Assembly: GCA_024518585.1 (NCBI GenBank)
Contig: JANIHI010000008.1
Location: 6,989-70,988, forward strand
Source of the DNA: Methanolinea sp.
Lineage (GTDB): Archaea; Halobacteriota; Methanomicrobia; Methanomicrobiales; Methanospirillaceae
Direction of reading: 5' to 3'
Length of the DNA: 64,000 nucleotides
Shown here: positions 3,450 to 60,341 of the stretch, piece after piece
How positions within the stretch are numbered: the stretch's first letter is position 1
How the letters are laid out: every line of letters begins with the position of its first letter
The notes under the pieces: generated by a model
Seen by the model: the letters and a program-made list of their open reading frames with translations, nothing else
Told to the model about the DNA's origin: nothing
The model's database searches: none
Program-made: the position numbers and the translations under genes

Positions 3450-4949
3450 ATGTCTGAATTATACAAAAAAATGGTCCACGAGGCGATGGCAGCCCAGCGG
3501 GCCGACGTGGAAACGGTCAGGAAGAAGAGAGGACAGTCCTTTGTCATCGATGATGCAAAGGCATACCTCGATGCCGTGAAGTTGATGAAACCAATCGGGG
3601 AACAGTCAAAAGCAGTCTTCTCCCTTCACGTGGAATCGGTCAAAGCCCATTTTGACGTCCTCGAGAAACTGACACAAACCGTCCGGCCCGAAGATGATCC
3701 CTTTGTCGAGCATTACCAGACACCCGTGGTGATGGAAATCCTCTACGACCAGGACCCGGCGTTCAAGAAGAGCGTTGATGCCTTCGTCAAGGCGATTGGA
3801 AAGGCCGAGGCACTCATCGGGAAGGAGTCTGCCCGCCGGTATGCAGGCTTCTATGGGCCGACCTGTGTTGTTGACTTTGCACTCATTCCGGGCAGCACGA
3901 GCAATGTCGTGAACCAGGTCCTGCAGAAGACCGATATCCCTGCCGCCCACAAGCAGGCGATCCTTGCTTCAAAGTCCTGGGGCATGAACACGTCATACGG
4001 GATTGGGGAGGTATTTGCCCACGAGGTCGAGAAGGGTGCCACCCTTGCCGATGCGGTCAAAGCAGAGATCAAGATGCTCCAGGCGGTCTACGAAAACCCG
4101 GTGGAGACGCAGGCAAAGCTGATGGACGATGCCGGAATGAGCTCATTTGACTGCCGGAAGTACATGTCCGGGTACCGGAAAAAGATGGAAGCTCCGGTCA
4201 GGGCGGCGATCGATGACGGAATCCACTACGGAAACATCGTTACAATTCCCGCGTACTGCGTGGGGGATATTGCCCACCACATCGCCCAGTCCACCTTCAA
4301 CATGTGCAAGGACGACGTCATCATGGCCACGATCGATGCTGCCACCGAGGTAATGGACAGGAACCTGAACGCAGCAGTCCCGAAATTCAGGAACGAATAT
4401 GATGTCCTCTCGGTTGCGACCGGGGCTTCGGCCTGTGCTGCCGAGTACCTCCTGGAACTGGACGGCTTTAATGCCATCATGGTAGTCGACCTCCTCACGA
4501 AACGGTGGCACAACTATGTGCAGCTTTACCCGCGCCGTGGGGCAGCGGCCGAACTGCACAACTGCGACTTCATGGACATGATCTACCGGGGCTGGAAGTA
4601 CATCGATAAGGCCAGGCGGGCCCAGAACGGGCATTCCGGCATGTTGAAACCGAAAGTGGGAGGCTTCGATATTGACCTTTCGCCGATCCACGAGAACGAG
4701 GTCCTCATGAACCCCCAGCGGTATGCGTACCCGGCATGTGCCATCACCGTGCGTGCGTCGGCGATGCTGCGCCTCGCCGACTATCCCTGCCTCTTGACAA
4801 GCGAGCCCGTGACGGCGACCCTCATGACCAACATCATCGCCCTGCACAAGGAGGTTGCCGCAGCCCCGGCCAGGATCTGCAAGGACTGTGCATCGGCAGC
4901 GCTCATGGACTTCCGGCATTGCTATTGCCAGTGGAGAGAAGCAGTCTAA
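3450..4949 (+). CDS. conserved archaeal/methanogen protein of unknown function (~500 aa; I recall this family as DUF2193 but cannot verify)
   Basis: Long ORF with protein-like composition. Start chosen at MSELYKKM (GGGGGA about 12 nt upstream). C-terminal CKDC...HCYC cysteine cluster. No catalytic motif that I recognise. Confidence 0.7.
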   Translation: MSELYKKMVHEAMAAQRADVETVRKKRGQSFVIDDAKAYLDAVKLMKPIGEQSKAVFSLHVESVKAHFDVLEKLTQTVRPEDDPFVEHYQTPVVMEILYDQDPAFKKSVDAFVKAIGKAEALIGKESARRYAGFYGPTCVVDFALIPGSTSNVVNQVLQKTDIPAAHKQAILASKSWGMNTSYGIGEVFAHEVEKGATLADAVKAEIKMLQAVYENPVETQAKLMDDAGMSSFDCRKYMSGYRKKMEAPVRAAIDDGIHYGNIVTIPAYCVGDIAHHIAQSTFNMCKDDVIMATIDAATEVMDRNLNAAVPKFRNEYDVLSVATGASACAAEYLLELDGFNAIMVVDLLTKRWHNYVQLYPRRGAAAELHNCDFMDMIYRGWKYIDKARRAQNGHSGMLKPKVGGFDIDLSPIHENEVLMNPQRYAYPACAITVRASAMLRLADYPCLLTSEPVTATLMTNIIALHKEVAAAPARICKDCASAALMDFRHCYCQWREAV

Positions 4950-4969
4950 AGCAGAGCTGGTGAGGTCAC

Positions 4970-5179
4970 ATGAAGTGCTATGTCTGTGTGAAAGAAGGGC
5001 GGTCCACCGATGCGGTTGCGGTGTGTATCGTCTGCGGCATGGGTCTTTGCAAAGATCATGCCATACGCGAGGAATTGGACCTGTGGGAGGGGGGCTACCC
5101 CTTCCCGGCCAAGAAGGTGAAGGCAAAGATCCCACGCATTCTCTGTCCCGAGTGCTACCAGGCACTCAAGGGGAAGTGA
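4970..5179 (+). CDS. small Cys-rich zinc-ribbon-like protein (69 aa; DUF2180-like from memory)
   Basis: CYVC...CIVCGMGLC..H...CPEC pattern. Lies 20 nt after the preceding gene and 4 nt before the aquaporin gene. Confidence 0.6.
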   Translation: MKCYVCVKEGRSTDAVAVCIVCGMGLCKDHAIREELDLWEGGYPFPAKKVKAKIPRILCPECYQALKGK

Positions 5180-5939: not shown

Positions 5940-6344
5940 ATGAGGGTAAAAAGACGAGCACCGGAGAGAAACCATGGCAGAAAAGGGGCTGCCATGTCCC
6001 TATCAGGAGTCGGGCGGGCAGTCCAGTTCCCCCTCTCTTCTCTCGTGTCCCGGGTAATGGGATGCCATTGACACAGGACGTGCAGTTTTTATACCAGTGA
6101 CCGGCAAGTCCTGCATCATGTGCCGGAAAGTTATCTGTCCCTCCTGCAGGGAGGCGAAAGTGCGTGTCGCCATGATGAGGGCGTACATCAGGCCGAGGGG
6201 GCCCGATGGAAGACCCCGGTTGGTCCCGGTCGGGTGGTGGTGCCCCTCGTGCGGAGGATTCCAGAAGGAGTGATATCGGGAGAAACCATTTTCTTTTTCC
6301 CCGACCCGGAACAAATATCTCCCCGGCCCAAAAAAGACTCTCCC

Positions 6345-55969: not shown

Positions 55970-56524
55970 ATGTTTTCCTGGCTCCGTTCCCACATGCGTG
56001 TGCTGGCGGAGCTCTCGCGTGCGATTCTATTCCTGTTTACCTTTGTACTCGCGGTCCCCCTCCTTCTGGGTGCCATCCTCGGAATTCCGGAGGGCAAAAT
56101 CCTCCCGCTCATCGCATCTGCGTTCATCCTTCAGGGGGCTGCACCTCCCCTCGGGCATCCCCTCGGGCTTGCTGACCCTGTCATCATCGCCCTGATGGCG
56201 TCCTTTGCAGTCGGTGTGGTGACCTGCATCCTCGAGGTCTGCGATGCCCTCTCCCTGACATCAGAACGGGTTGCACGCTGGATCCGGAAAGTCGGGGAGA
56301 GTATGGAGAAACACCCATCGATTCGCTCGTACGGGGCCATCTCCTGCATCTTCATCGCGTGGATACCCGGGATCGGGCTCTACGGCACTCCCGTCATTGC
56401 CTGGATTCTGGGATGGCAAAAAATCCCAACCATCATCTTCACGACGGCAGGTTTCGTGATCGCTTCCGGACTTGTCCTCACGGTGACGGTTTTTGCCGAG
56501 AGTATTCACCACGTCTTCTTCTGA
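55970..56524 (+). CDS. membrane protein, small-multidrug-export-like (paralog of 38772..39521)
   Basis: 184 aa. TM helices flank the loop RWIRKVGESMEKHPSIRSYG. Same layout as the 38772 product. Confidence 0.5.
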   Translation: MFSWLRSHMRVLAELSRAILFLFTFVLAVPLLLGAILGIPEGKILPLIASAFILQGAAPPLGHPLGLADPVIIALMASFAVGVVTCILEVCDALSLTSERVARWIRKVGESMEKHPSIRSYGAISCIFIAWIPGIGLYGTPVIAWILGWQKIPTIIFTTAGFVIASGLVLTVTVFAESIHHVFF

Positions 56525-56610: not shown

Positions 56611-56618
56611 AAAAAAAA
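56611..56618 (-). terminator. T8 tract directly after the stop of the last gene of the small-protein operon
   Basis: Minus strand reads TAA-TTTTTTTT. Fits archaeal oligo-T termination. Confidence 0.45.
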
Positions 56619-56930
56619 TTATTCACCCGGGTTTTCCGTTGTGAGGTGGAGAGTGATGATCCCGTTGCATGCCTTGCATGCATAGAACTTTTCCGTCCAG
56701 CAGGAGGCACAGGCCCACCTCCCGCAGAGGGCACATTGCCTTAAGTCTTTCTTGGGGAATGTGTTGTTGCAGAGGTCGCATGAATAGCGGGAGAAACTGG
56801 CGGGGTCCCGTTCGGGGGAGTCCCCCTGCCTCCTCACCCTCTGGATATCCTTCCTGATGCGGGAGATGAGGTCTTCCCCCCTCTTTTTTTCCGGAAGACT
56901 ACCGTGGGACCTGCTTTTCCAGAGCCTCAA
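56619..56930 (-). CDS. basic protein ending in a four-CxxC zinc ribbon
   Basis: CDLC-x11-CALC-x4-CASC-x7-CKAC. The only long-ORF start is TTG 56930, which overlaps the upstream gene by 32 nt. An in-frame GTG further down is an alternative. Confidence 0.5.
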   Translation of the reverse strand: MRLWKSRSHGSLPEKKRGEDLISRIRKDIQRVRRQGDSPERDPASFSRYSCDLCNNTFPKKDLRQCALCGRWACASCWTEKFYACKACNGIITLHLTTENPGE

Positions 56931-57237
56931 TCCTCTCCTCCAGCCTGTTTAGTTCTTCGCCGAAATCCTTTTCGAAGGCCTTGAGCGCTGCCATCCTCTC
57001 CTCGTCCCTTGCGAGGAGGGTCATCTTTTCGTCCCTGAACTGCTCTGCCTGGGGACGCCGGACGAGCGACCATTCCTCGATGAGCATGTCGAATTTCCGG
57101 TCGAGGTACTCGTCGATCCGGCTCTCCAGCGGGCGGGATATATCCAGCCTGCCGGTCGACCCCCGCAAGTAATAGTAGAGGGTAAAGGCAATGAGAACGA
57201 TGAGAATGAGGACGAGGAGCCCTTCGATGATTGTCAT
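56899..57237 (-). CDS. TM-anchored coiled-coil protein (112 aa), paralog group with the next two genes
   Basis: N-terminal IIEGLLVLILIVLIAFTLYYYL helix, then EYLDRKFDMLIEEWSLVRR, then a heptad-rich helix. ATGA overlap upstream. Confidence 0.6.
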   Translation of the reverse strand: MTIIEGLLVLILIVLIAFTLYYYLRGSTGRLDISRPLESRIDEYLDRKFDMLIEEWSLVRRPQAEQFRDEKMTLLARDEERMAALKAFEKDFGEELNRLEERIEALEKQVPR

Positions 57238-57455
57238 TGTCGCCTCCCCCTGATATACTCGAGCCTCTTTTCAAGTTCGGTGAGCTTTGCCGAGGCCGTC
57301 GCCTCGAACCCTGCACACATCCGCGCCTCCTCTTCGAGTACGGAGAGGCGGGATACGAGGTCGCCGAGGTCCCGCCGGGTTGCGAGATCCCATTCCTCGA
57401 TCAGGTACTTCATGCGTCGGTCCACGTAGGAGCCGAGGTAGTCCGGGCGCTTCAT
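57234..57455 (-). CDS. small coiled-coil protein (73 aa), paralog
   Basis: SYVDRRMKYLIEEWDLATRRDLGDLVSRLSVLEEE. ATGA overlaps on both sides. Confidence 0.55.
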   Translation of the reverse strand: MKRPDYLGSYVDRRMKYLIEEWDLATRRDLGDLVSRLSVLEEEARMCAGFEATASAKLTELEKRLEYIRGRRQ

Positions 57456-57760
57456 TGCCCCTCGAGCCCCCTCAACTCTTTTTTGAGGGCAGCAGCCCTC
57501 TTTTCGAGTGCATTTCTGTTCTTCTCGAGGAGATCGATCTGCCCGTGGACACGATCAAGCCTCCGTTCCAGGTTTTTCAAGTGGATGGAGGTTACGAGCC
57601 CCCACTCGCTGATAATTGCCGGGAAATTCCGGTCGAAGTACTCGTCGAGCCCCCTGTCCATCGTCGGGAGGTGCTCATCGATGACTGCCGGGATCTCCTT
57701 TATCGATTCCAGTACGGGGTACTTCTCAATTGTCCTGCCGGGAGTCTCGTATTCGGCCAT
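57452..57760 (-). CDS. small coiled-coil protein (102 aa), paralog
   Basis: EYFDRNFPAIISEWGLVTSIHLKNLERRLDRVHGQIDLLEKNRNALEKRAAALKKEL. GGTGAG RBS-like sequence 4 nt upstream. Confidence 0.6.
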   Translation of the reverse strand: MAEYETPGRTIEKYPVLESIKEIPAVIDEHLPTMDRGLDEYFDRNFPAIISEWGLVTSIHLKNLERRLDRVHGQIDLLEKNRNALEKRAAALKKELRGLEGQ

Positions 57761-57764
57761 TGTC

Positions 57765-58148
57765 TCACCCCAACCTCTCCTCTTCGCGTTTTATCTTCTC
57801 TATCATCCGGTCGAGCTTTGTCAAGGCAACCTTGCTCTCGAGGCGCTTCAACCGTTTTTCAACGGCAGTATGCCGCGCAAGGATGTCAGTCTCCAGTCCC
57901 GCGTTCTCGTCATCGAGCTGCCTCAGTTCCTCGAGGTCCGCCGGGGCTATCCTGAAGAACGGGCGTCCCCTCTGTTCCATGTCCGCCTTCAGGAGGTTGA
58001 TCTTCTCCCGCTCGAGTTCAAGCTGGGCGAGCCGTGTCCGGGAGTAGACAAGGCGCATCTCCCGGATGATAAAGTAAACGATAACCAGACCAACAAGGAA
58101 GAAAATGACCGGGAGAGACTTTTCAAACAGCACCCACGCATCTGTCAT
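57765..58148 (-). CDS. TM-anchored coiled-coil protein (127 aa)
   Basis: SLPVIFFLVGLVIVYFII helix, then long E/R/L/K-rich helices. Confidence 0.6.
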   Translation of the reverse strand: MTDAWVLFEKSLPVIFFLVGLVIVYFIIREMRLVYSRTRLAQLELEREKINLLKADMEQRGRPFFRIAPADLEELRQLDDENAGLETDILARHTAVEKRLKRLESKVALTKLDRMIEKIKREEERLG

Positions 58149-58167
58149 GTATCAGGACCCCCGGATC

Positions 58168-58596
58168 TCAGAGGCTCTTTTCGTGAAGGCCTTTCTTAAC
58201 GGATTCAACTTCTTTTTCCACCGTCCCCTTTACCGAGGCTGTCTTGCTGGAAATTGTCTCCCTGGCTTTCTTCACATCCGCTTTTAAGGTCTCCCTAGTC
58301 TCCTCCGCGGTCTTTTTCATGCGTTCTCCCACTGGAGGCCTCCGCGTCACGTTCACCTCCGATCCTGACCGTGCCCCCACCTGGGCCATATCATCCGGGC
58401 TTAACCTGATATACCCAACCTCGACGAGCGTATCGGCAAAGACCGTGACCACGACAGGTTTTTTGCCACCCGGGGCAGAGACCTCGACCTCGTCTCCCTC
58501 GCCGATCCCGAGAGACTTTAAATGGCTCTCGTTCAGCCGTGCCCGTCCCCTGCTGGGAAATGCCCTTTCCTGGACTTTCAACGTGATTGAATCCAT
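58168..58596 (-). CDS. stand-alone Cdc48/VAT N-domain-like (double-psi barrel) protein with K/E-rich tail
   Basis: ITLKVQERAF..GRARLNESHLKSLGIGEGDEVEV...VGYIRLSPDDMAQVGARSGSEVNV follows the LKV-EA..G.ARL....LG...GD.VE..G.IR....R...G...G..V pattern of the VAT-N subdomain. Confidence 0.65.
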   Translation of the reverse strand: MDSITLKVQERAFPSRGRARLNESHLKSLGIGEGDEVEVSAPGGKKPVVVTVFADTLVEVGYIRLSPDDMAQVGARSGSEVNVTRRPPVGERMKKTAEETRETLKADVKKARETISSKTASVKGTVEKEVESVKKGLHEKSL

Positions 58597-58620
58597 ATGG
58601 GGGAGATTATGCTTGGGTAC

Positions 58621-58627
58621 TATAAAA
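58621..58627 (-). promoter_or_regulatory. TATA box (TTTTATA on the minus strand) 24 nt upstream of ATG 58596
   Basis: Plus strand tataaaa at 58621-58627. It is the only AT-rich element in the divergent intergenic region. Confidence 0.4.
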
Positions 58628-58716
58628 CCTCTCCCGGGCTTGGGTTTGACACGATCGGCGGGATGCCCCTGATATCCAGCAGAAACTAATTATCTTCTGT
58701 GCACAGAGACGTTTCC

Positions 58717-59547
58717 ATGAGATCGGCTGTTTTTTTTCTGCTCTGTCTGTTCTGCCTGGTCAATGGCACGGCAGCGTATGAACTGACCATCAATGCCCCT
58801 GCAGAAGTCCGGGCCGGGGCACCGCTCGAGGTAACGGGGAATACGACGTTTCCAGCCGGGACGCAGTTTGACCTCGTCCTCTACTACCTCCAGACGACAA
58901 TGCCCGAGATCGTCGCCCAAAAGATCATCATCGTTGATGAATCACGGTCATTCCAGGCATCATTCCCGACCATGGGACTGACACCGGGAGATTACAAGCT
59001 GGAGGTGCGTTTCCCGAGGGACCCGGGGTCACGGTTGAGTTCAAGCTCAGTGACGACCCGCATTGTACGGATCACGGACAGGTCAGGCGAGATTGAGATC
59101 ACATCGGACAGAAACCAGGTGATAGGAGATGCCCTGCGGATCGAGGGATACATGCCGAAGGCAGGGGTGACCACCCTGACCCTGAAGATAACGGGGCCGC
59201 AGGGCAGAGTCCTCCCCCCGCAGGATGTCAGGACAACGACCCGCCTTGGAAAGGATGAGGGGTATTTCTCCCTTGTTATCCCGGTTGGGGAGAGAGGTAA
59301 CTACTACGTCGACTTTTCAGATACTAAGGGGTATATAACGACGGTCCGGTTCACGGTCGAATCTTCCCCGGGAGCGACGCCGGTCCCTTCGGAAGAGGTC
59401 CATGACCACCAGGCGGAAGTGACCGTTCCCCGCAGTTCATCAATTCCTCTCCCCCTTGCAGGATCCATCGGCGGGCTCCTGATTGCATCGGGCCTTTCGT
59501 ACAGGAAGGTGAGAAAAATGGGAGAAAGAACGCAGAAAAAATACTGA
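58717..59547 (+). CDS. secreted surface protein with C-terminal TM anchor (beta-rich, Ig-like repeats likely)
   Basis: Signal peptide MRSAVFFLLCLFCLVNGTAAYE. C-terminal GSIGGLLIASGLSY helix followed by a basic tail RKVRKMGERTQKKY. Confidence 0.65.
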   Translation: MRSAVFFLLCLFCLVNGTAAYELTINAPAEVRAGAPLEVTGNTTFPAGTQFDLVLYYLQTTMPEIVAQKIIIVDESRSFQASFPTMGLTPGDYKLEVRFPRDPGSRLSSSSVTTRIVRITDRSGEIEITSDRNQVIGDALRIEGYMPKAGVTTLTLKITGPQGRVLPPQDVRTTTRLGKDEGYFSLVIPVGERGNYYVDFSDTKGYITTVRFTVESSPGATPVPSEEVHDHQAEVTVPRSSSIPLPLAGSIGGLLIASGLSYRKVRKMGERTQKKY

Positions 59548-59702: not shown

Positions 59703-60341
59703 TTACTGCATCCTTCTCCATACCGCGACTTCGTAGAGGAGAAGGAGGAAGGTGACCATGACACCGCCAAGGAAGAACGCGAGGACGACCTCCGTGGGAA
59801 AAGCAGGGGCTGCCGGGACAGGGACAGCTGCGCGTTCGGCCATGATACCGACTGCCTTTTCTGCCTGGAAGGCTGCATCACCCCGCGGTGCCCCCTCCGA
59901 AAAGAAAGTCGAGGCCGCAAGGATTGCGTAGCTTGCCAGGGAGGCAAGGGCCACAACACCGAAGAGCGCAGCATACTTGAGGAGTATCGAGCGGATATTC
60001 GGCGTCTTTGGTGCCATGATGAGCAACTGGTTGCGAAGTCCGTACACCTTGACCTGCCTGCCTTTCACGCTGTACTTCACGTTCTTTACTTCAATCAGAC
60101 CAGCGTCAAGCAGGTTCTCGATGTGGTACTTGATGGTGCCCATCGGCATGGTAAGGGATGCTGCAAGGTCGCCTGAAGTCTGAGGTCCCTTCTCAAGGGC
60201 GTGGAGGATATCACTGGCAGCCTGGCTCGCAATTGCCTTCCCGATTTTTTGGGCCCTCTCGTCCCCGGGGAGGAGGATGACCAGGTCAGCGTCTGCCGGA
60301 TGCGTTTCCTGTCCCGTGCCGCTCCCTTCCTCCCCGTGCAC
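59703..60341 (-). CDS. ArsR-family winged-HTH regulator fused to C-terminal transmembrane segments
   Basis: ILHALEKGPQTSGDLAASLTMPMGTIKYHIENLLDAGLIEV is an ArsR-type HTH. It is followed by two hydrophobic helices. Confidence 0.75.
   Translation of the reverse strand: MHGEEGSGTGQETHPADADLVILLPGDERAQKIGKAIASQAASDILHALEKGPQTSGDLAASLTMPMGTIKYHIENLLDAGLIEVKNVKYSVKGRQVKVYGLRNQLLIMAPKTPNIRSILLKYAALFGVVALASLASYAILAASTFFSEGAPRGDAAFQAEKAVGIMAERAAVPVPAAPAFPTEVVLAFFLGGVMVTFLLLLYEVAVWRRMQ

What the first reader, a model, noticed from the sequence alone, without database searches (positions are those of the whole stretch)
56611..58627. Six-gene, translationally coupled operon of small coiled-coil / TM / zinc-ribbon proteins headed by a stand-alone Cdc48-N-like domain: best candidate for an undescribed system
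This minus-strand unit is bounded by a TATA box (58627..58621, 24 nt before ATG 58596, so nearly leaderless) and a T8 tract (56618..56611) right after the last stop. Gene spacing is 19 nt, 4 nt, two ATGA overlaps, then a 32-nt overlap.

Products:
- A: a VAT/Cdc48 N-subdomain-like barrel plus a K/E-rich tail.
- B: a TM helix plus coiled coil.
- C, D, E: these share a motif I aligned by eye, Y-[FVL]-D-R-[NRK]-[FM]-x-x-[IL]-I-[SE]-E-W-x-L-[VA]-[TR], followed by heptad-rich helices. E also has a TM helix.
- F: a basic protein ending in four CxxC pairs.

Three in-operon paralogs, two membrane anchors, an adaptor-like barrel and a zinc ribbon look like a membrane-associated scaffold or complex. I cannot assign it to any characterised system. 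The W-x-L-V-T + coiled-coil element only loosely recalls phasin or BMFP/UbiK-type helices.
Basis: partly seen in the sequence, partly recalled or inferred. Interest (0 to 1): 0.7.

Follow-up and report, generated by a model that had tools for sequence, protein, structure and literature searches.

The report
Conserved archaeal membrane scaffold gene cassette
Six small, tightly packed genes in this methanogen genome form a real operon that recurs in about 90 related stretches of archaeal DNA, encodes no enzyme, and most likely builds a membrane-anchored scaffold of unknown role that matches no characterised system.

Summary
Six minus-strand genes (A-F, 56619-58596) have the stated spacings, TATA box and T8 tract. 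All six are under purifying selection.

The order A-B-C-D-E-F is kept in 22 of 22 Methanomicrobiales species genomes and in about 50 metagenome contigs. Shuffled or variant cassettes occur in a Thermoplasmatota MAG, a Theionarchaea-related contig and unplaced low-GC contigs.

- A is a VAT/Cdc48-Nn-type double-psi barrel with an 11-residue-periodic amphipathic tail.
- B and E are N-out/C-in single-pass membrane coiled-coil proteins.
- C, D and E are true paralogs (hhalign 97%) of a small helical domain with no Pfam family. Only 88 representatives were found among 1.84 billion proteins.
- F is not a plain zinc ribbon. It is Pfam Prok-RING_2 (PF14445), an eight-Cys RING-type finger.

Variant cassettes add a PRC-barrel protein and a second zinc-ribbon protein, or fuse TrkA_C to A. 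No enzyme gene was seen inside any cassette.

Best reading: a stoichiometric, enzyme-free, membrane-anchored coiled-coil scaffold that displays protein-binding adaptor domains. The cellular process is unknown. Candidates are division or envelope organisation, proteostasis, and membrane stress.

I found no functional description. The 2011 paper that defined Prok-RING_2 could not be read and may already mention this neighbourhood.

The parts
58621..58627 (-). TATA-box-like promoter element (TTTTATA), 24 nt upstream of the ATG of A. This implies a leaderless or very short-leader mRNA.
   Evidence: Sequence read. An A/T-rich TATA-like element sits at the same roughly -25 to -33 position before the A start in all 22 orthologous loci. 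No SD-like motif precedes A.
58168..58596 (-). Gene A (142 aa). Residues about 1-95 (58312-58596) form a VAT/Cdc48-Nn-type double-psi beta barrel. Residues about 96-142 form a K/E-rich amphipathic helical tail.
   Evidence: Pfam hits: Molydop_binding 30.3 bits (cut-off 26.8), CDC48_N 28.4 (below cut-off 35.1), and FeoA, MazE and apolipoprotein/YtxH on the tail. The family profile hits PDB Cdc48/VAT DPBB constructs (7du7 E 3.6e-6, 7dg9, 1cz4) across both barrel halves. The tail shows lag-11/22 autocorrelation in orthologs and a hydrophobic moment that peaks at 98-100 degrees. It is 100% identical to NQU46_05605 of a Methanolinea sp. MAG.
57765..58148 (-). Gene B (127 aa). Single N-terminal TM helix (residues about 10-28, 58065-58121) followed by a cytoplasmic coiled coil. 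Predicted topology N-out/C-in.
   Evidence: Hydropathy and flank charges. Family alignment A7 with invariant positions. No Pfam or NCBIfam hit and no PDB relative. Not demonstrably related to C, D or E (hhalign 32% and 6%).
57452..57760 (-). Gene C (102 aa). Soluble paralog 1 of the 'YxDR-EW' helical domain, with a conserved N-terminal extension (LPTMDK).
   Evidence: Alignment A3. hhalign to D and E at 97%. Sub-threshold PF05597 phasin hits in 9 of 18 orthologs. PDB search returned only generic coiled coils.
57234..57455 (-). Gene D (73 aa). Soluble paralog 2, the minimal domain. Its start overlaps the stop of C (ATGA).
   Evidence: Alignment A4. hhalign. The 4-nt D-E overlap is conserved in 22 of 22 loci.
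56899..57237 (-). Gene E (112 aa). Membrane-anchored paralog 3: TM helix residues 3-25 (57163-57231), motif helix 37-57 (57067-57129), long helix 61-109.
   Evidence: Alignment A5. AlphaFold2 model with mean pLDDT 76.5 and those three helices. No fold match in PDB. 677 homolog clusters, with no name beyond 'hypothetical protein' and no Pfam domain among the 120 listed. 100% identical to NQU46_05585.
56619..56930 (-). Gene F (103 aa, TTG start, 32-nt overlap with E). Basic N-terminal helix plus an eight-Cys RING-type binuclear zinc finger (residues 42-96, 56643-56807).
   Evidence: PF14445 Prok-RING_2, E 3e-25. Eight invariant Cys. GGAGGAGAGGA lies directly upstream of the TTG. The E-F overlap of 29-32 nt is kept in 21 of 22 loci (41 nt with the start I chose in L003). 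The AF2 core has pLDDT 72-81, and the top Foldseek hits, though not significant, are FYVE, PHD and RING domains.
56611..56618 (-). T8 tract immediately after the stop of F. Candidate archaeal oligo-T terminator.
   Evidence: T-tracts follow F in some orthologous loci but not all, so this element is plausible but weakly conserved.

Best explanation
The six genes encode the subunits of one enzyme-free complex anchored on the cytoplasmic face of the membrane.

Shown:
- The genes are co-transcribed from a conserved promoter, probably as a leaderless or short-leader mRNA, with overlapping or closely spaced starts.
- The gene set is retained even where the gene order is shuffled.
- C, D and E are paralogs.
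- B and E carry single N-terminal TM helices, with their coiled coils predicted to be cytoplasmic.
- A is a Cdc48/VAT-Nn-type barrel with an 11-residue-repeat amphipathic tail.
- F is a RING-type zinc finger.
- No enzyme gene was seen inside any of the roughly 90 cassettes examined.

Inferred:
- B and E anchor a hetero-oligomeric helical bundle.
- The three paralogs (C, D and the cytoplasmic part of E) assemble through their shared helix-break-helix domain, probably 1:1:1 given the translational coupling.
- A lies on the membrane surface through its amphipathic tail.
- The barrel of A and the RING of F act as protein- or peptide-binding adaptors that recruit or hold a still unknown cytoplasmic partner at the membrane. 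In variant cassettes a PRC barrel and a second zinc ribbon would do the same.

The cellular process is not established. My leading guess is organisation of a division or envelope-associated assembly. Its basis is that every variant cassette whose contig reaches that position carries a PRC-barrel protein, that PRC-barrel proteins are shown division factors in haloarchaea, and that all variants lack enzymes.
For: - Operon structure.
- Purifying selection on all six genes.
- Collinear A-F in 22 of 22 GTDB Methanomicrobiales loci, with conserved overlaps.
- About 50 further collinear metagenome loci.
- Same gene set in other orders: L025 is B-C-D-E-F-A; L028 is F-A-paralog-E-B-paralog-ZnR-PRC; L032 has the same eight genes.
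- Paralogy of C, D and E.
- TM topology and tail periodicity.
- DPBB assignment.
- RING assignment.
- PRC barrel above the Pfam cut-off in three variant loci and found by HMM in four more.
- TrkA_C fused to A in L029 and L031 and in several clusters.
- No defence or phage family hit, apart from one weak hit of E to an unannotated PHROG (E 0.0005), and GC content like the flanks.
- PRC-barrel proteins CdpB1-3 are haloarchaeal division proteins: bioRxiv 10.1101/2023.03.28.534520, read.
Against: - No experiment or complex prediction supports assembly. The monomer models are only helices or of low confidence.
- The window's own cassette has no PRC barrel, so the division link is indirect. PRC barrels also serve unrelated roles. 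The same paper notes that many are encoded beside translation and RNA-processing genes, and that HVO_1607 is not a division protein.
- The distribution is patchy and no named haloarchaeal member was seen, which argues against a core divisome role.
- Neighbouring genes are not consistent between lineages.
- The barrel of A is also related to AbrB/MazE DNA-binding barrels.
Confidence: 0.55

Rival explanations
1. Proteostasis adaptor hub. The membrane-anchored complex uses the Cdc48-N-like barrel and the RING finger to capture damaged or misplaced (membrane) proteins. It then hands them to an AAA+ unfoldase such as VAT/Cdc48 or PAN with the proteasome, or to a chaperone system. This would be an ERAD-like arrangement without ubiquitin.
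For: - The barrel of A is closest to the substrate- and adaptor-binding Nn subdomain of VAT/Cdc48. Most A orthologs carry a precomputed PF02359 hit.
- F is a RING-type finger.
- The two-gene B+E-like variant sits beside dnaJ-dnaK-grpE and an M24 peptidase in L024 (the peptidase also in L027).
- DnaJ lies 7.5 kb upstream in L094.
Against: - No ATPase, protease, Ubl, E1, E2 or JAB gene was seen inside any cassette in about 90 loci.
- A lacks the Nc subdomain that forms the binding cleft in Cdc48.
- The Hsp70 adjacency was seen in only one low-GC lineage plus one distant case.
Confidence: 0.15
2. Membrane-stress or osmotic-stress protective coat, analogous to Psp, phasin or LEA proteins. The amphipathic repeats of A and the phasin-like helices coat or stabilise stressed membrane, anchored by B and E. 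TrkA_C in some A proteins senses an ionic or nucleotide signal.
For: - The tail of A has 11-residue periodicity and hits apolipoprotein, YtxH and ApoO families, and its length varies between orthologs.
- C and D give sub-threshold phasin PF05597 hits.
- E gives weak PspB hits in 8 of 18 orthologs.
- TrkA_C is fused to A in some lineages.
- Neighbours include MscS and OpuA in Methanogenium marinum, and a Na+/H+ exchanger and a TrkA_C permease in strain CYW5.
Against: - All of these hits are below the curated cut-offs and concern low-complexity helices.
- The RING, the DPBB and the PRC barrel have no role in this picture.
- The neighbour evidence is anecdotal.
- No PspA/IM30 gene was seen in the cassette.
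Confidence: 0.15
3. Membrane-tethered transcription control. A acts as an AbrB/MazE-like DNA-binding barrel and F as a TFE/TFIIE-alpha-like zinc ribbon that contacts RNA polymerase. The coiled-coil proteins sequester or release them.
For: - A hits MazE/AbrB families (17.5 bits in the window; 25.7 bits against a cut-off of 24.7 for the L028 ortholog).
- The F profile aligns to the helix-plus-zinc-ribbon region of TFIIE-alpha at E 2.7e-5.
- A has a conserved Arg-rich loop, RAFPSRGRAR.
Against: - A carries both barrel halves in one chain and matches VAT-N DPBBs over its full length.
- Zinc-ribbon matches to RING-like fingers are reported as fortuitous (PMC4678705).
- F has eight Cys where TFIIE-alpha has four.
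- No target operon is evident.
Confidence: 0.05
4. The cluster is not one system. It is a chance or merely syntenic run of unrelated small genes, or some of the small ORFs are not translated.
For: No expression data were available here. All products are small and helix-rich. The T-tract terminator is poorly conserved.
Against: - pN is far below pS for every gene.
- The same gene set recurs in different orders in distant lineages.
- The 4-nt and 29-32-nt overlaps are conserved.
- NCBI annotation gives A and E locus tags NQU46_05605 and NQU46_05585, a span that fits six consecutive genes.
Confidence: 0.02

Closest known systems
N-terminal (Nn) double-psi beta-barrel of VAT/Cdc48/p97 AAA+ ATPases
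   Same: A residues about 1-95 align over both pseudo-symmetric halves (GRARxxE...GD-V-V twice) to Cdc48/VAT DPBB structures. Most orthologs hit PF02359.
   Different: A is a stand-alone protein. It has no Nc beta-clam and no AAA+ domains. It carries an amphipathic 11-residue-repeat tail, and TrkA_C in some lineages.
Prok-RING_2 (PF14445) and eukaryotic C4C4 RING fingers
   Same: F scores far above the Pfam cut-off. Its ligand spacing is C-x2-C-x11-C-x2-C-x4-C-x2-C-x7-C-x2-C, which from my own knowledge of the RING consensus is close to a C4C4 RING.
   Different: No E1, E2, Ubl or JAB gene lies nearby, so nothing suggests E3 ligase activity. The cross-brace fold was not confirmed (pLDDT 59, Foldseek E at least 0.25).
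PhaF/PhaI-type phasins (PF05597) and UbiK/BMFP-type helices
   Same: C, and more weakly D, aligns to profile positions 56-125 of PF05597 across the EW-x-L-x-T-R-x-D-L...R-L...LE region.
   Different: All scores are below the cut-off, and E gives no hit. No PHA synthase gene was among the cassette neighbours examined. The resemblance may be a shared helix-cap plus leucine-zipper pattern rather than homology.
Phage-shock (PspA/B/C) and FtsB/FtsL/DivIC-type sets of small bitopic coiled-coil proteins
   Same: The architecture is similar: several small, co-transcribed, single-pass membrane coiled-coil proteins plus peripheral amphipathic partners. There are weak PspB hits for E and weak DivIC hits for C.
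   Different: No hit reaches a cut-off. There is no PspA, FtsQ or FtsZ in the cassette. The resemblance is in design only.
Haloarchaeal division proteins CdpB1-3 (PRC barrel) and CdpC (zinc finger plus amphipathic helix)
   Same: Variant cassettes carry a PRC-barrel protein. The theme of zinc finger, amphipathic helix and small barrel at the membrane recurs (bioRxiv 10.1101/2023.03.28.534520 and 10.64898/2026.07.16.738847).
   Different: The window's cassette has no PRC barrel. No sequence relation of F to CdpC or of A to any Cdp protein was tested or found. FtsZ and SepF are not neighbours.

Membership tests
Prok-RING_2 (PF14445) | Score above the Pfam gathering cut-off | tested here: met
   F scores 88.6 bits against a cut-off of 22.4, E 3e-25. 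The divergent L025 ortholog scores 54 bits.
Prok-RING_2 / RING finger | Eight conserved metal ligands with RING-like spacing | tested here: met
   C51, C54, C66, C69, C74, C77, C85 and C88 are invariant in alignment A2. The C4-C5 spacing is 4 residues, against 2-3 in the RING consensus as I recall it.
Prok-RING_2 / RING finger | Cross-brace binuclear zinc fold | tested here: inconclusive
   The AF2 model has mean pLDDT 59, with the core at 72-81. The top Foldseek hits are FYVE, PHD, RING and RBR domains, but the best E-value is 0.25.
RING E3 ubiquitin-like conjugation system | E1, E2, Ubl or JAB genes in the neighbourhood | tested here: not met
   None was seen in the window flanks or in the Pfam-annotated neighbours of 12 loci.
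RING E3 ubiquitin-like conjugation system | Ligase activity with an E2 enzyme | not testable with these tools
   This needs biochemistry.
Cdc48/VAT AAA+ ATPase | N-terminal double-psi beta barrel (Nn) | tested here: met
   The family profile hits PDB entries 7du7, 7dvf, 7dg9 and 1cz4 (E from 3.6e-6 to 0.02). The window protein scores 28.4 bits on CDC48_N, below the cut-off of 35.1.
Cdc48/VAT AAA+ ATPase | Nc beta-clam subdomain and D1/D2 AAA+ domains | tested here: not met
   A has 142 aa. Only a helical K/E-rich tail follows the barrel, and there is no AAA hit.
Phasin PF05597 (PhaF/PhaI) | Score above the cut-off of 28.8 bits | tested here: not met
   The best score is 25.6 bits (C ortholog of L012). 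9 of 18 C orthologs and 6 of 18 D orthologs give sub-threshold hits; no E ortholog does.
Phage-shock system | PspA/IM30 gene present, and PspB or PspC membership | tested here: not met
   No PspA hit on any cassette protein of the window. The best PspB hit is E 0.0017, below the cut-off.
FtsB/DivIC family | PF04977 score above the cut-off, with an N-terminal TM helix | tested here: not met
   C scores 16.1 bits against a cut-off of 28.9 and has no TM helix.
AbrB/MazE/SpoVT swapped-hairpin barrel | A single half-barrel of about 50 aa that dimerises, scoring above the PF04014 cut-off | tested here: not met
   The window's A scores 17.5 bits against a cut-off of 24.7 and holds two tandem halves in one chain. 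Only the L028 ortholog passes, marginally, at 25.7 bits.
PRC-barrel (CdpB/CdvA-type) division modules | A PRC-barrel protein encoded in the cassette | tested here: not met
   It is absent from the window and from all collinear A-F loci. It is present in the variant cassettes L023, L026, L028, L032, L038, L040 and L041.
Anti-phage defence or phage gene families | A match to a PADLOC or PHROGs model | tested here: not met
   No PADLOC hit. One weak hit to an unannotated PHROG for E, E 0.0005.

The most novel reading that the evidence does not exclude
The cassette encodes a previously unrecognised, ancient archaeal membrane machine. It would be a heteromeric coiled-coil scaffold built from a triplicated new domain, which tethers a Cdc48-N-type barrel, a RING finger and, in some lineages, a PRC barrel.

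It could act either as a lineage-variable part of the FtsZ-type division or envelope apparatus, or as a ubiquitin-independent forerunner of the eukaryotic pairing of a membrane RING with Cdc48 (as in ERAD).
Probability: 0.2. Interest if true: 0.85.

Novelty: categorically new. Interest (0 to 1): 0.62.

Why it matters
Archaeal cell biology is still short of parts lists. This cassette is single-copy in the 64-kb window, lies among core genes rather than on a mobile island, and is conserved throughout Methanomicrobiales, a major group of methanogens. Variants occur in a Thermoplasmatota MAG and a Theionarchaea-related contig.

It combines three adaptor folds that have well-known roles elsewhere:
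- the Cdc48-N barrel,
- the RING finger,
- the PRC barrel.

It joins them to a new triplicated helical domain and to no enzyme at all.

If it proves to be a division or envelope scaffold, it adds a module to the poorly known FtsZ-based archaeal divisome. If it proves to be a proteostasis hub, it would show RING and Cdc48-N domains cooperating at a membrane before ubiquitin. Either way, it gives a defined, small and testable set of proteins.

The label 'categorically new' means only that every system-level membership test failed. The component domains of A and F are known. The neighbourhood may have been noted, without functional work, in the 2011 paper that defined Prok-RING_2.

Tried and rejected
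- **Prior literature.** Burroughs, Iyer and Aravind 2011 (PMID 21547297, PMC5938088, doi 10.1039/c1mb05061c) is not held. Seven full-text searches found no paper describing the operon.
- **Fold searches.** Foldseek against PDB gave no significant match for the F model and none for the E model.
- **PDB profile searches.** B, C and E returned only generic coiled coils or nothing. The variant PRC proteins returned nothing useful.
- **B as a fourth paralog.** Rejected: hhalign gives 32% and 6%.
- **NCBIfam.** Nothing near a cut-off.
- **PADLOC and PHROGs.** No defence or annotated phage family; one weak hit of E to an unannotated PHROG.
- **Horizontal-transfer island.** Rejected on GC content and housekeeping flanks.
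- **Sigma-70 promoter and hairpin terminator scan.** Not applicable to an archaeon, so ignored.
- **Metagenome scan with a 10-sequence alignment.** I redid it with four sequences.
- **Motif scan for DnaK, DnaJ, FtsZ and Cdc48 signatures in all loci.** Found only DnaJ in L024. The two FtsZ-like hits in the window were chance matches in non-genes.
- **First regex for the shared motif.** It had the wrong spacing and found nothing.
- **SNARE-like four-helix reading.** Considered because of the two anchored and two soluble coiled-coil proteins plus an NSF/Cdc48-N-type barrel. Not pursued: the only support is one stray Syntaxin_2 hit at E 0.0025.


Full report
**Observation**

The six minus-strand ORFs are present exactly as described:

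| Gene | Coordinates | Length |
|---|---|---|
| A | 58168-58596 | 142 aa |
| B | 57765-58148 | 127 aa |
| C | 57452-57760 | 102 aa |
| D | 57234-57455 | 73 aa |
| E | 56899-57237 | 112 aa |
| F | 56619-56930 | 103 aa (TTG start) |

- Spacing is 19 nt, 4 nt, two ATGA overlaps and a 32-nt overlap.
- TTTTATA lies at 58627-58621, 24 nt before the ATG of A. T8 (56618-56611) directly follows the TAA of F.
- A has no SD-like motif upstream. Each of B-F has a G-rich SD-like motif 4-14 nt upstream, including GGAGGAGAGGA before the TTG of F.
- Long antisense ORFs over the region (for example 57231-58199 on the plus strand, 322 aa) are shadow ORFs of a GC-rich coding strand.

**Are the genes real, and is this one unit?**

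- The proportion of non-synonymous differences is far below that of synonymous differences for all six genes. For E against L001, pN is 0.03 and pS 0.26. For A against L017, pN is 0.44 and pS 0.84. This was tested against eight orthologous loci.
- A scan of one genome per species (GTDB) with the F alignment found 22 loci, all Methanomicrobiales. They cover Methanolinea, other Methanoregulaceae, Methanoculleus, Methanogenium and Methanomicrobiaceae.
- All 22 carry A-B-C-D-E-F in this order.
- The D-E overlap is 4 nt in 22 of 22 loci. The E-F overlap is 29-32 nt in 21 of 22, and 41 nt with the start I chose in L003.
- A TATA-like element sits at the same distance before the start of A in all 22 loci. 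This argues for a conserved promoter and a leaderless or very short-leader mRNA. The oligo-T tract after F is not uniformly conserved.
- The window comes from a Methanolinea sp. MAG. A and E are 100% identical to NQU46_05605 and NQU46_05585, a locus-tag span that fits six consecutive genes.
- GC content matches the flanks. The neighbours are housekeeping genes: hisH by its conserved sequence, alaS by its size and sequence, and a PUA-PAPS-reductase protein confirmed by Pfam.
- No defence or annotated phage family matches. E gives one weak hit to an unannotated PHROG.

**The proteins**

*A.* Residues about 1-95 are a double-psi beta barrel of the VAT/Cdc48 Nn type.
- Pfam gives Molydop_binding 30.3 bits (above its cut-off), CDC48_N 28.4 bits (below its cut-off), and FeoA and MazE. 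All are cradle-loop barrels.
- The family profile matches solved Cdc48/VAT DPBB constructs over both pseudo-symmetric halves: 7du7 at E 3.6e-6, plus 7dg9 and 1cz4.
- The tail is K/E/G/A-rich and varies in length between orthologs. It shows lag-11 and lag-22 autocorrelation, and its hydrophobic moment peaks at 98-100 degrees. From general knowledge, this is the pattern of surface-lying amphipathic helices in apolipoproteins, alpha-synuclein and LEA proteins. It also hits apolipoprotein and YtxH families.
- In some lineages a TrkA_C domain follows the tail.

*B and E.* Each has one N-terminal TM helix with a net positive C-terminal flank. This predicts N-out/C-in topology with cytoplasmic coiled coils.

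*C, D and E.* These are genuine paralogs.
- hhalign gives 97% probability for each pair, with E from 5e-11 to 6e-12.
- The motif Y-x-D-R-x5-I-x-E-W-x-L occurs three times in the window and never in 50 shuffles.
- An AlphaFold2 model of E (pLDDT 76.5) shows the TM helix, a 21-residue motif helix, a break at W-x-L-x-x, and a 49-residue helix. It has no fold match in PDB.
- B is not detectably related to them.

*F.* It is Pfam Prok-RING_2 (E 3e-25) with eight invariant Cys at RING-like spacing.
- Its AF2 model is only moderately confident. Foldseek gives no significant hit, although the top of the list is FYVE, PHD, RING and RBR domains.
- Its profile also aligns to the TFIIE-alpha zinc-ribbon region at E 2.7e-5. 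A published analysis of another RING-like finger treats a similar TFIIE-alpha zinc-ribbon match as fortuitous (PMC4678705).

**How wide is the family?**

- A profile of the shared C/D/E core was searched against 1.84 billion representative proteins. It found only 88 proteins at E of 1e-3 or better. All but one are 44-250 aa long; the weakest hit is a 533-aa repetitive coiled-coil protein. The domain is new to Pfam and narrow.
- It nevertheless extends beyond Methanomicrobiales. Members come from a Thermoplasmatota MAG, an unclassified 'archaeon' MAG, and a cluster that includes a Theionarchaea protein. A also has a Theionarchaea homolog.

I scanned the genomic contexts with my own HMMs of A-F and a PRC model. 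Three arrangements emerged.

| Type | Composition | Where seen |
|---|---|---|
| I | A-B-C-D-E-F, collinear | The 22 species genomes; L029-L031 (A fused to TrkA_C in L029 and L031); about 50 metagenome contigs. One lineage (L057, L059, L060, L065) has no F within 5 kb. L025 has the same six genes in the order B-C-D-E-F-A. |
| II | A, paralog, TM-paralog, usually B, paralog, often a 114-119-aa four-Cys zinc-ribbon protein, then a PRC-barrel protein | PRC (PF05239) is above its cut-off in L023, L026 and L028 and found by HMM in L032, L038, L040 and L041. F lies nearby in L028, L032 and L036, on either side and on either strand. |
| III | Only a B-like and an E-like gene | L024, beside dnaJ-dnaK-grpE and an M24 peptidase. 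L027, a related low-GC contig with an assembly gap upstream, shows the E/C-like gene and the peptidase. |

Retention of the gene set through changes of order and strand is strong evidence of functional coupling. No enzyme gene was seen inside any cassette.

**Interpretation**

What is shown is a co-expressed, stoichiometrically coupled set of small proteins:
- two membrane anchors;
- a triplicated helical domain;
- a peripheral amphipathic barrel protein;
- a RING finger.

Lineage-specific additions are a PRC barrel, a zinc ribbon and TrkA_C. From established knowledge of these families, I regard them as binding or sensing modules rather than catalysts.

What I infer is a membrane-anchored heteromeric coiled-coil scaffold on the cytoplasmic face that presents adaptor domains to an unknown partner.

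The process is open. I lean towards organisation of a division or envelope-associated assembly, for these reasons:
- PRC barrels are fixed members of the variant cassettes. PRC-barrel proteins CdpB1-3 are experimentally shown division factors in haloarchaea (bioRxiv 10.1101/2023.03.28.534520).
- Sets of small single-pass coiled-coil proteins are typical connectors in divisomes (general knowledge).
- A zinc-finger protein with an amphipathic helix anchors FtsZ1 in Haloferax (bioRxiv 10.64898/2026.07.16.738847). This is analogy only.
- An enzyme-free composition suits a structural role.

Against this reading: the window's own cassette has no PRC barrel, PRC barrels have other roles, the distribution is patchy, and FtsZ and SepF are never neighbours.

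Rival readings:
- **Proteostasis adaptor.** Supported by the Cdc48-N and RING domains and the Hsp70 adjacency in type III. Weakened by the absence of any ATPase, protease or Ubl gene.
- **Psp-, phasin- or LEA-like membrane-stress coat.** Supported by the amphipathic repeats, sub-threshold phasin and PspB hits, TrkA_C fusions, and MscS, OpuA and Na+/H+ exchanger neighbours in two genomes. It does not explain the RING, the DPBB or the PRC barrel.
- **Membrane-tethered transcription control.** Rests on AbrB-like and TFE-like resemblances and is weak.

**Comparison with what is known**

- At domain level, A belongs with Cdc48/VAT-N barrels and F with Prok-RING_2.
- At system level, every membership test failed. 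It is not an AAA+ ATPase, and there are no ubiquitin-type enzymes. It scores below the cut-offs for phasin, PspB and DivIC. It has no PspA. The window's cassette has no PRC barrel.
- The public annotations I saw are 'hypothetical protein' or clear mis-calls. JGI labels A as formylmethanofuran dehydrogenase subunit D and labels C as a predicted nuclease.
- I found no paper describing the operon. I could not read the 2011 paper that defined Prok-RING_2. From my own unverified recollection that its families were found through gene-context analysis, it may already depict the neighbourhood.

**Verdict**

- F is a catalogued RING-type finger.
- The cassette is wider and more variable than assumed.
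- 'Undescribed' is unverified.

The finding is a solid, conserved, uncharacterised archaeal system. The structural model is reasonable and the function is open. Interest is 0.62.

Noticed in passing
window 58699-59547 (+): Divergently transcribed 282-aa protein with a signal-peptide-like N-terminus and a C-terminal TM anchor, and no Pfam hit. A homolog lies next to the cassette in 16 loci from two clades. It is divergent in the Methanolinea group and on the same strand (368 aa) in the Methanoculleus-like loci L017, L019, L020 and L061. It may be a linked surface component.
   Followed up: partly
window 55970-56524 (+); L023 760-1992: A membrane protein resembling PF06695 (Sm_multidrug_ex) is convergent with the operon in the window and in 12 related loci. 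A 410-aa PF06695 protein also lies 2.3 kb upstream of the Thermoplasmatota variant cassette. This may be coincidence.
   Followed up: partly
window 57231-58199 (+) and 58244-58672 (+): Long antisense ORFs (322 and 142 aa) overlap genes A-D. Their apparent 'conservation' in tblastn only mirrors the conserved minus-strand genes. They are shadow ORFs.
   Followed up: yes
window 56619-56930 (-), F residues 20-80: The F family profile aligns to the helix plus zinc-ribbon region of TFIIE-alpha (8byq_W residues 98-160, E 2.7e-5). F Cys pairs 1 and 3 fall on the four TFIIE ligands. This fits a treble-clef core with an added second zinc site, or it is a fortuitous match.
   Followed up: partly
L029 1858-2763; L031 2775-3602; clusters P0322, P0330, P0339, P0340: Some A orthologs are about 275-307 aa long. 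They consist of the DPBB, a long amphipathic repeat region and a C-terminal TrkA_C (RCK_C-type) ligand-binding domain.
   Followed up: partly
L028 2611-2970; L032 5719-6063: The PRC-type cassettes hold an extra 114-119-aa protein ending in a four-Cys zinc ribbon (CxxC-x12-CxxC). It lies between the last paralog and the PRC-barrel gene, in addition to the RING protein F.
   Followed up: partly
L024 4587-5477 and 6137-9869; L027 3282-5312; L094 1-154; L093 1808-2647 and 15221-18342: In L024 the two-gene variant (B-like plus E-like) sits beside dnaJ-dnaK-grpE and an M24 peptidase; the peptidase is also beside the E/C-like gene in L027. In complete Methanomicrobiaceae genomes the cassette lies within 8 kb of DnaJ, a Na+/H+ exchanger and a TrkA_C permease (strain CYW5), or of MscS and an OpuA-type transporter (Methanogenium marinum). 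These are stress- or osmotic-flavoured neighbours, but anecdotal.
   Followed up: partly
L026 1833-2822; L032 2169-3839: PAS-domain proteins flank two independent PRC-type cassettes. In L032 the sequence looks like PAS repeats with a C-terminal HTH-like region, but I did not scan it. They are possible regulators.
   Followed up: no
clusters of P0249, P0254, P0226, P0199 (public annotations): JGI/IMG names A orthologs 'formylmethanofuran dehydrogenase subunit D', 'anaerobic selenocysteine-containing dehydrogenase' or 'YhaV-PrlF antitoxin'. It names C orthologs 'predicted nuclease (RecB/TOPRIM)'. These are mis-annotations caused by the barrel fold and the coiled coils.
   Followed up: no
window 59703-60341 (-): A 212-aa protein with an ArsR-type HTH (HTH_20/HTH_5) fused to a C-terminal membrane region resembling HVO_1552_C. 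It is conserved upstream of the cassette only in the Methanolinea group.
   Followed up: no
L022 (Methanogenium cariaci JCM 10550 draft) 4747-5119 and 5971-6300: B is split into two frames, and F and A carry small insertions relative to close relatives. These are probably sequencing frameshifts in the draft assembly rather than pseudogenes.
   Followed up: no
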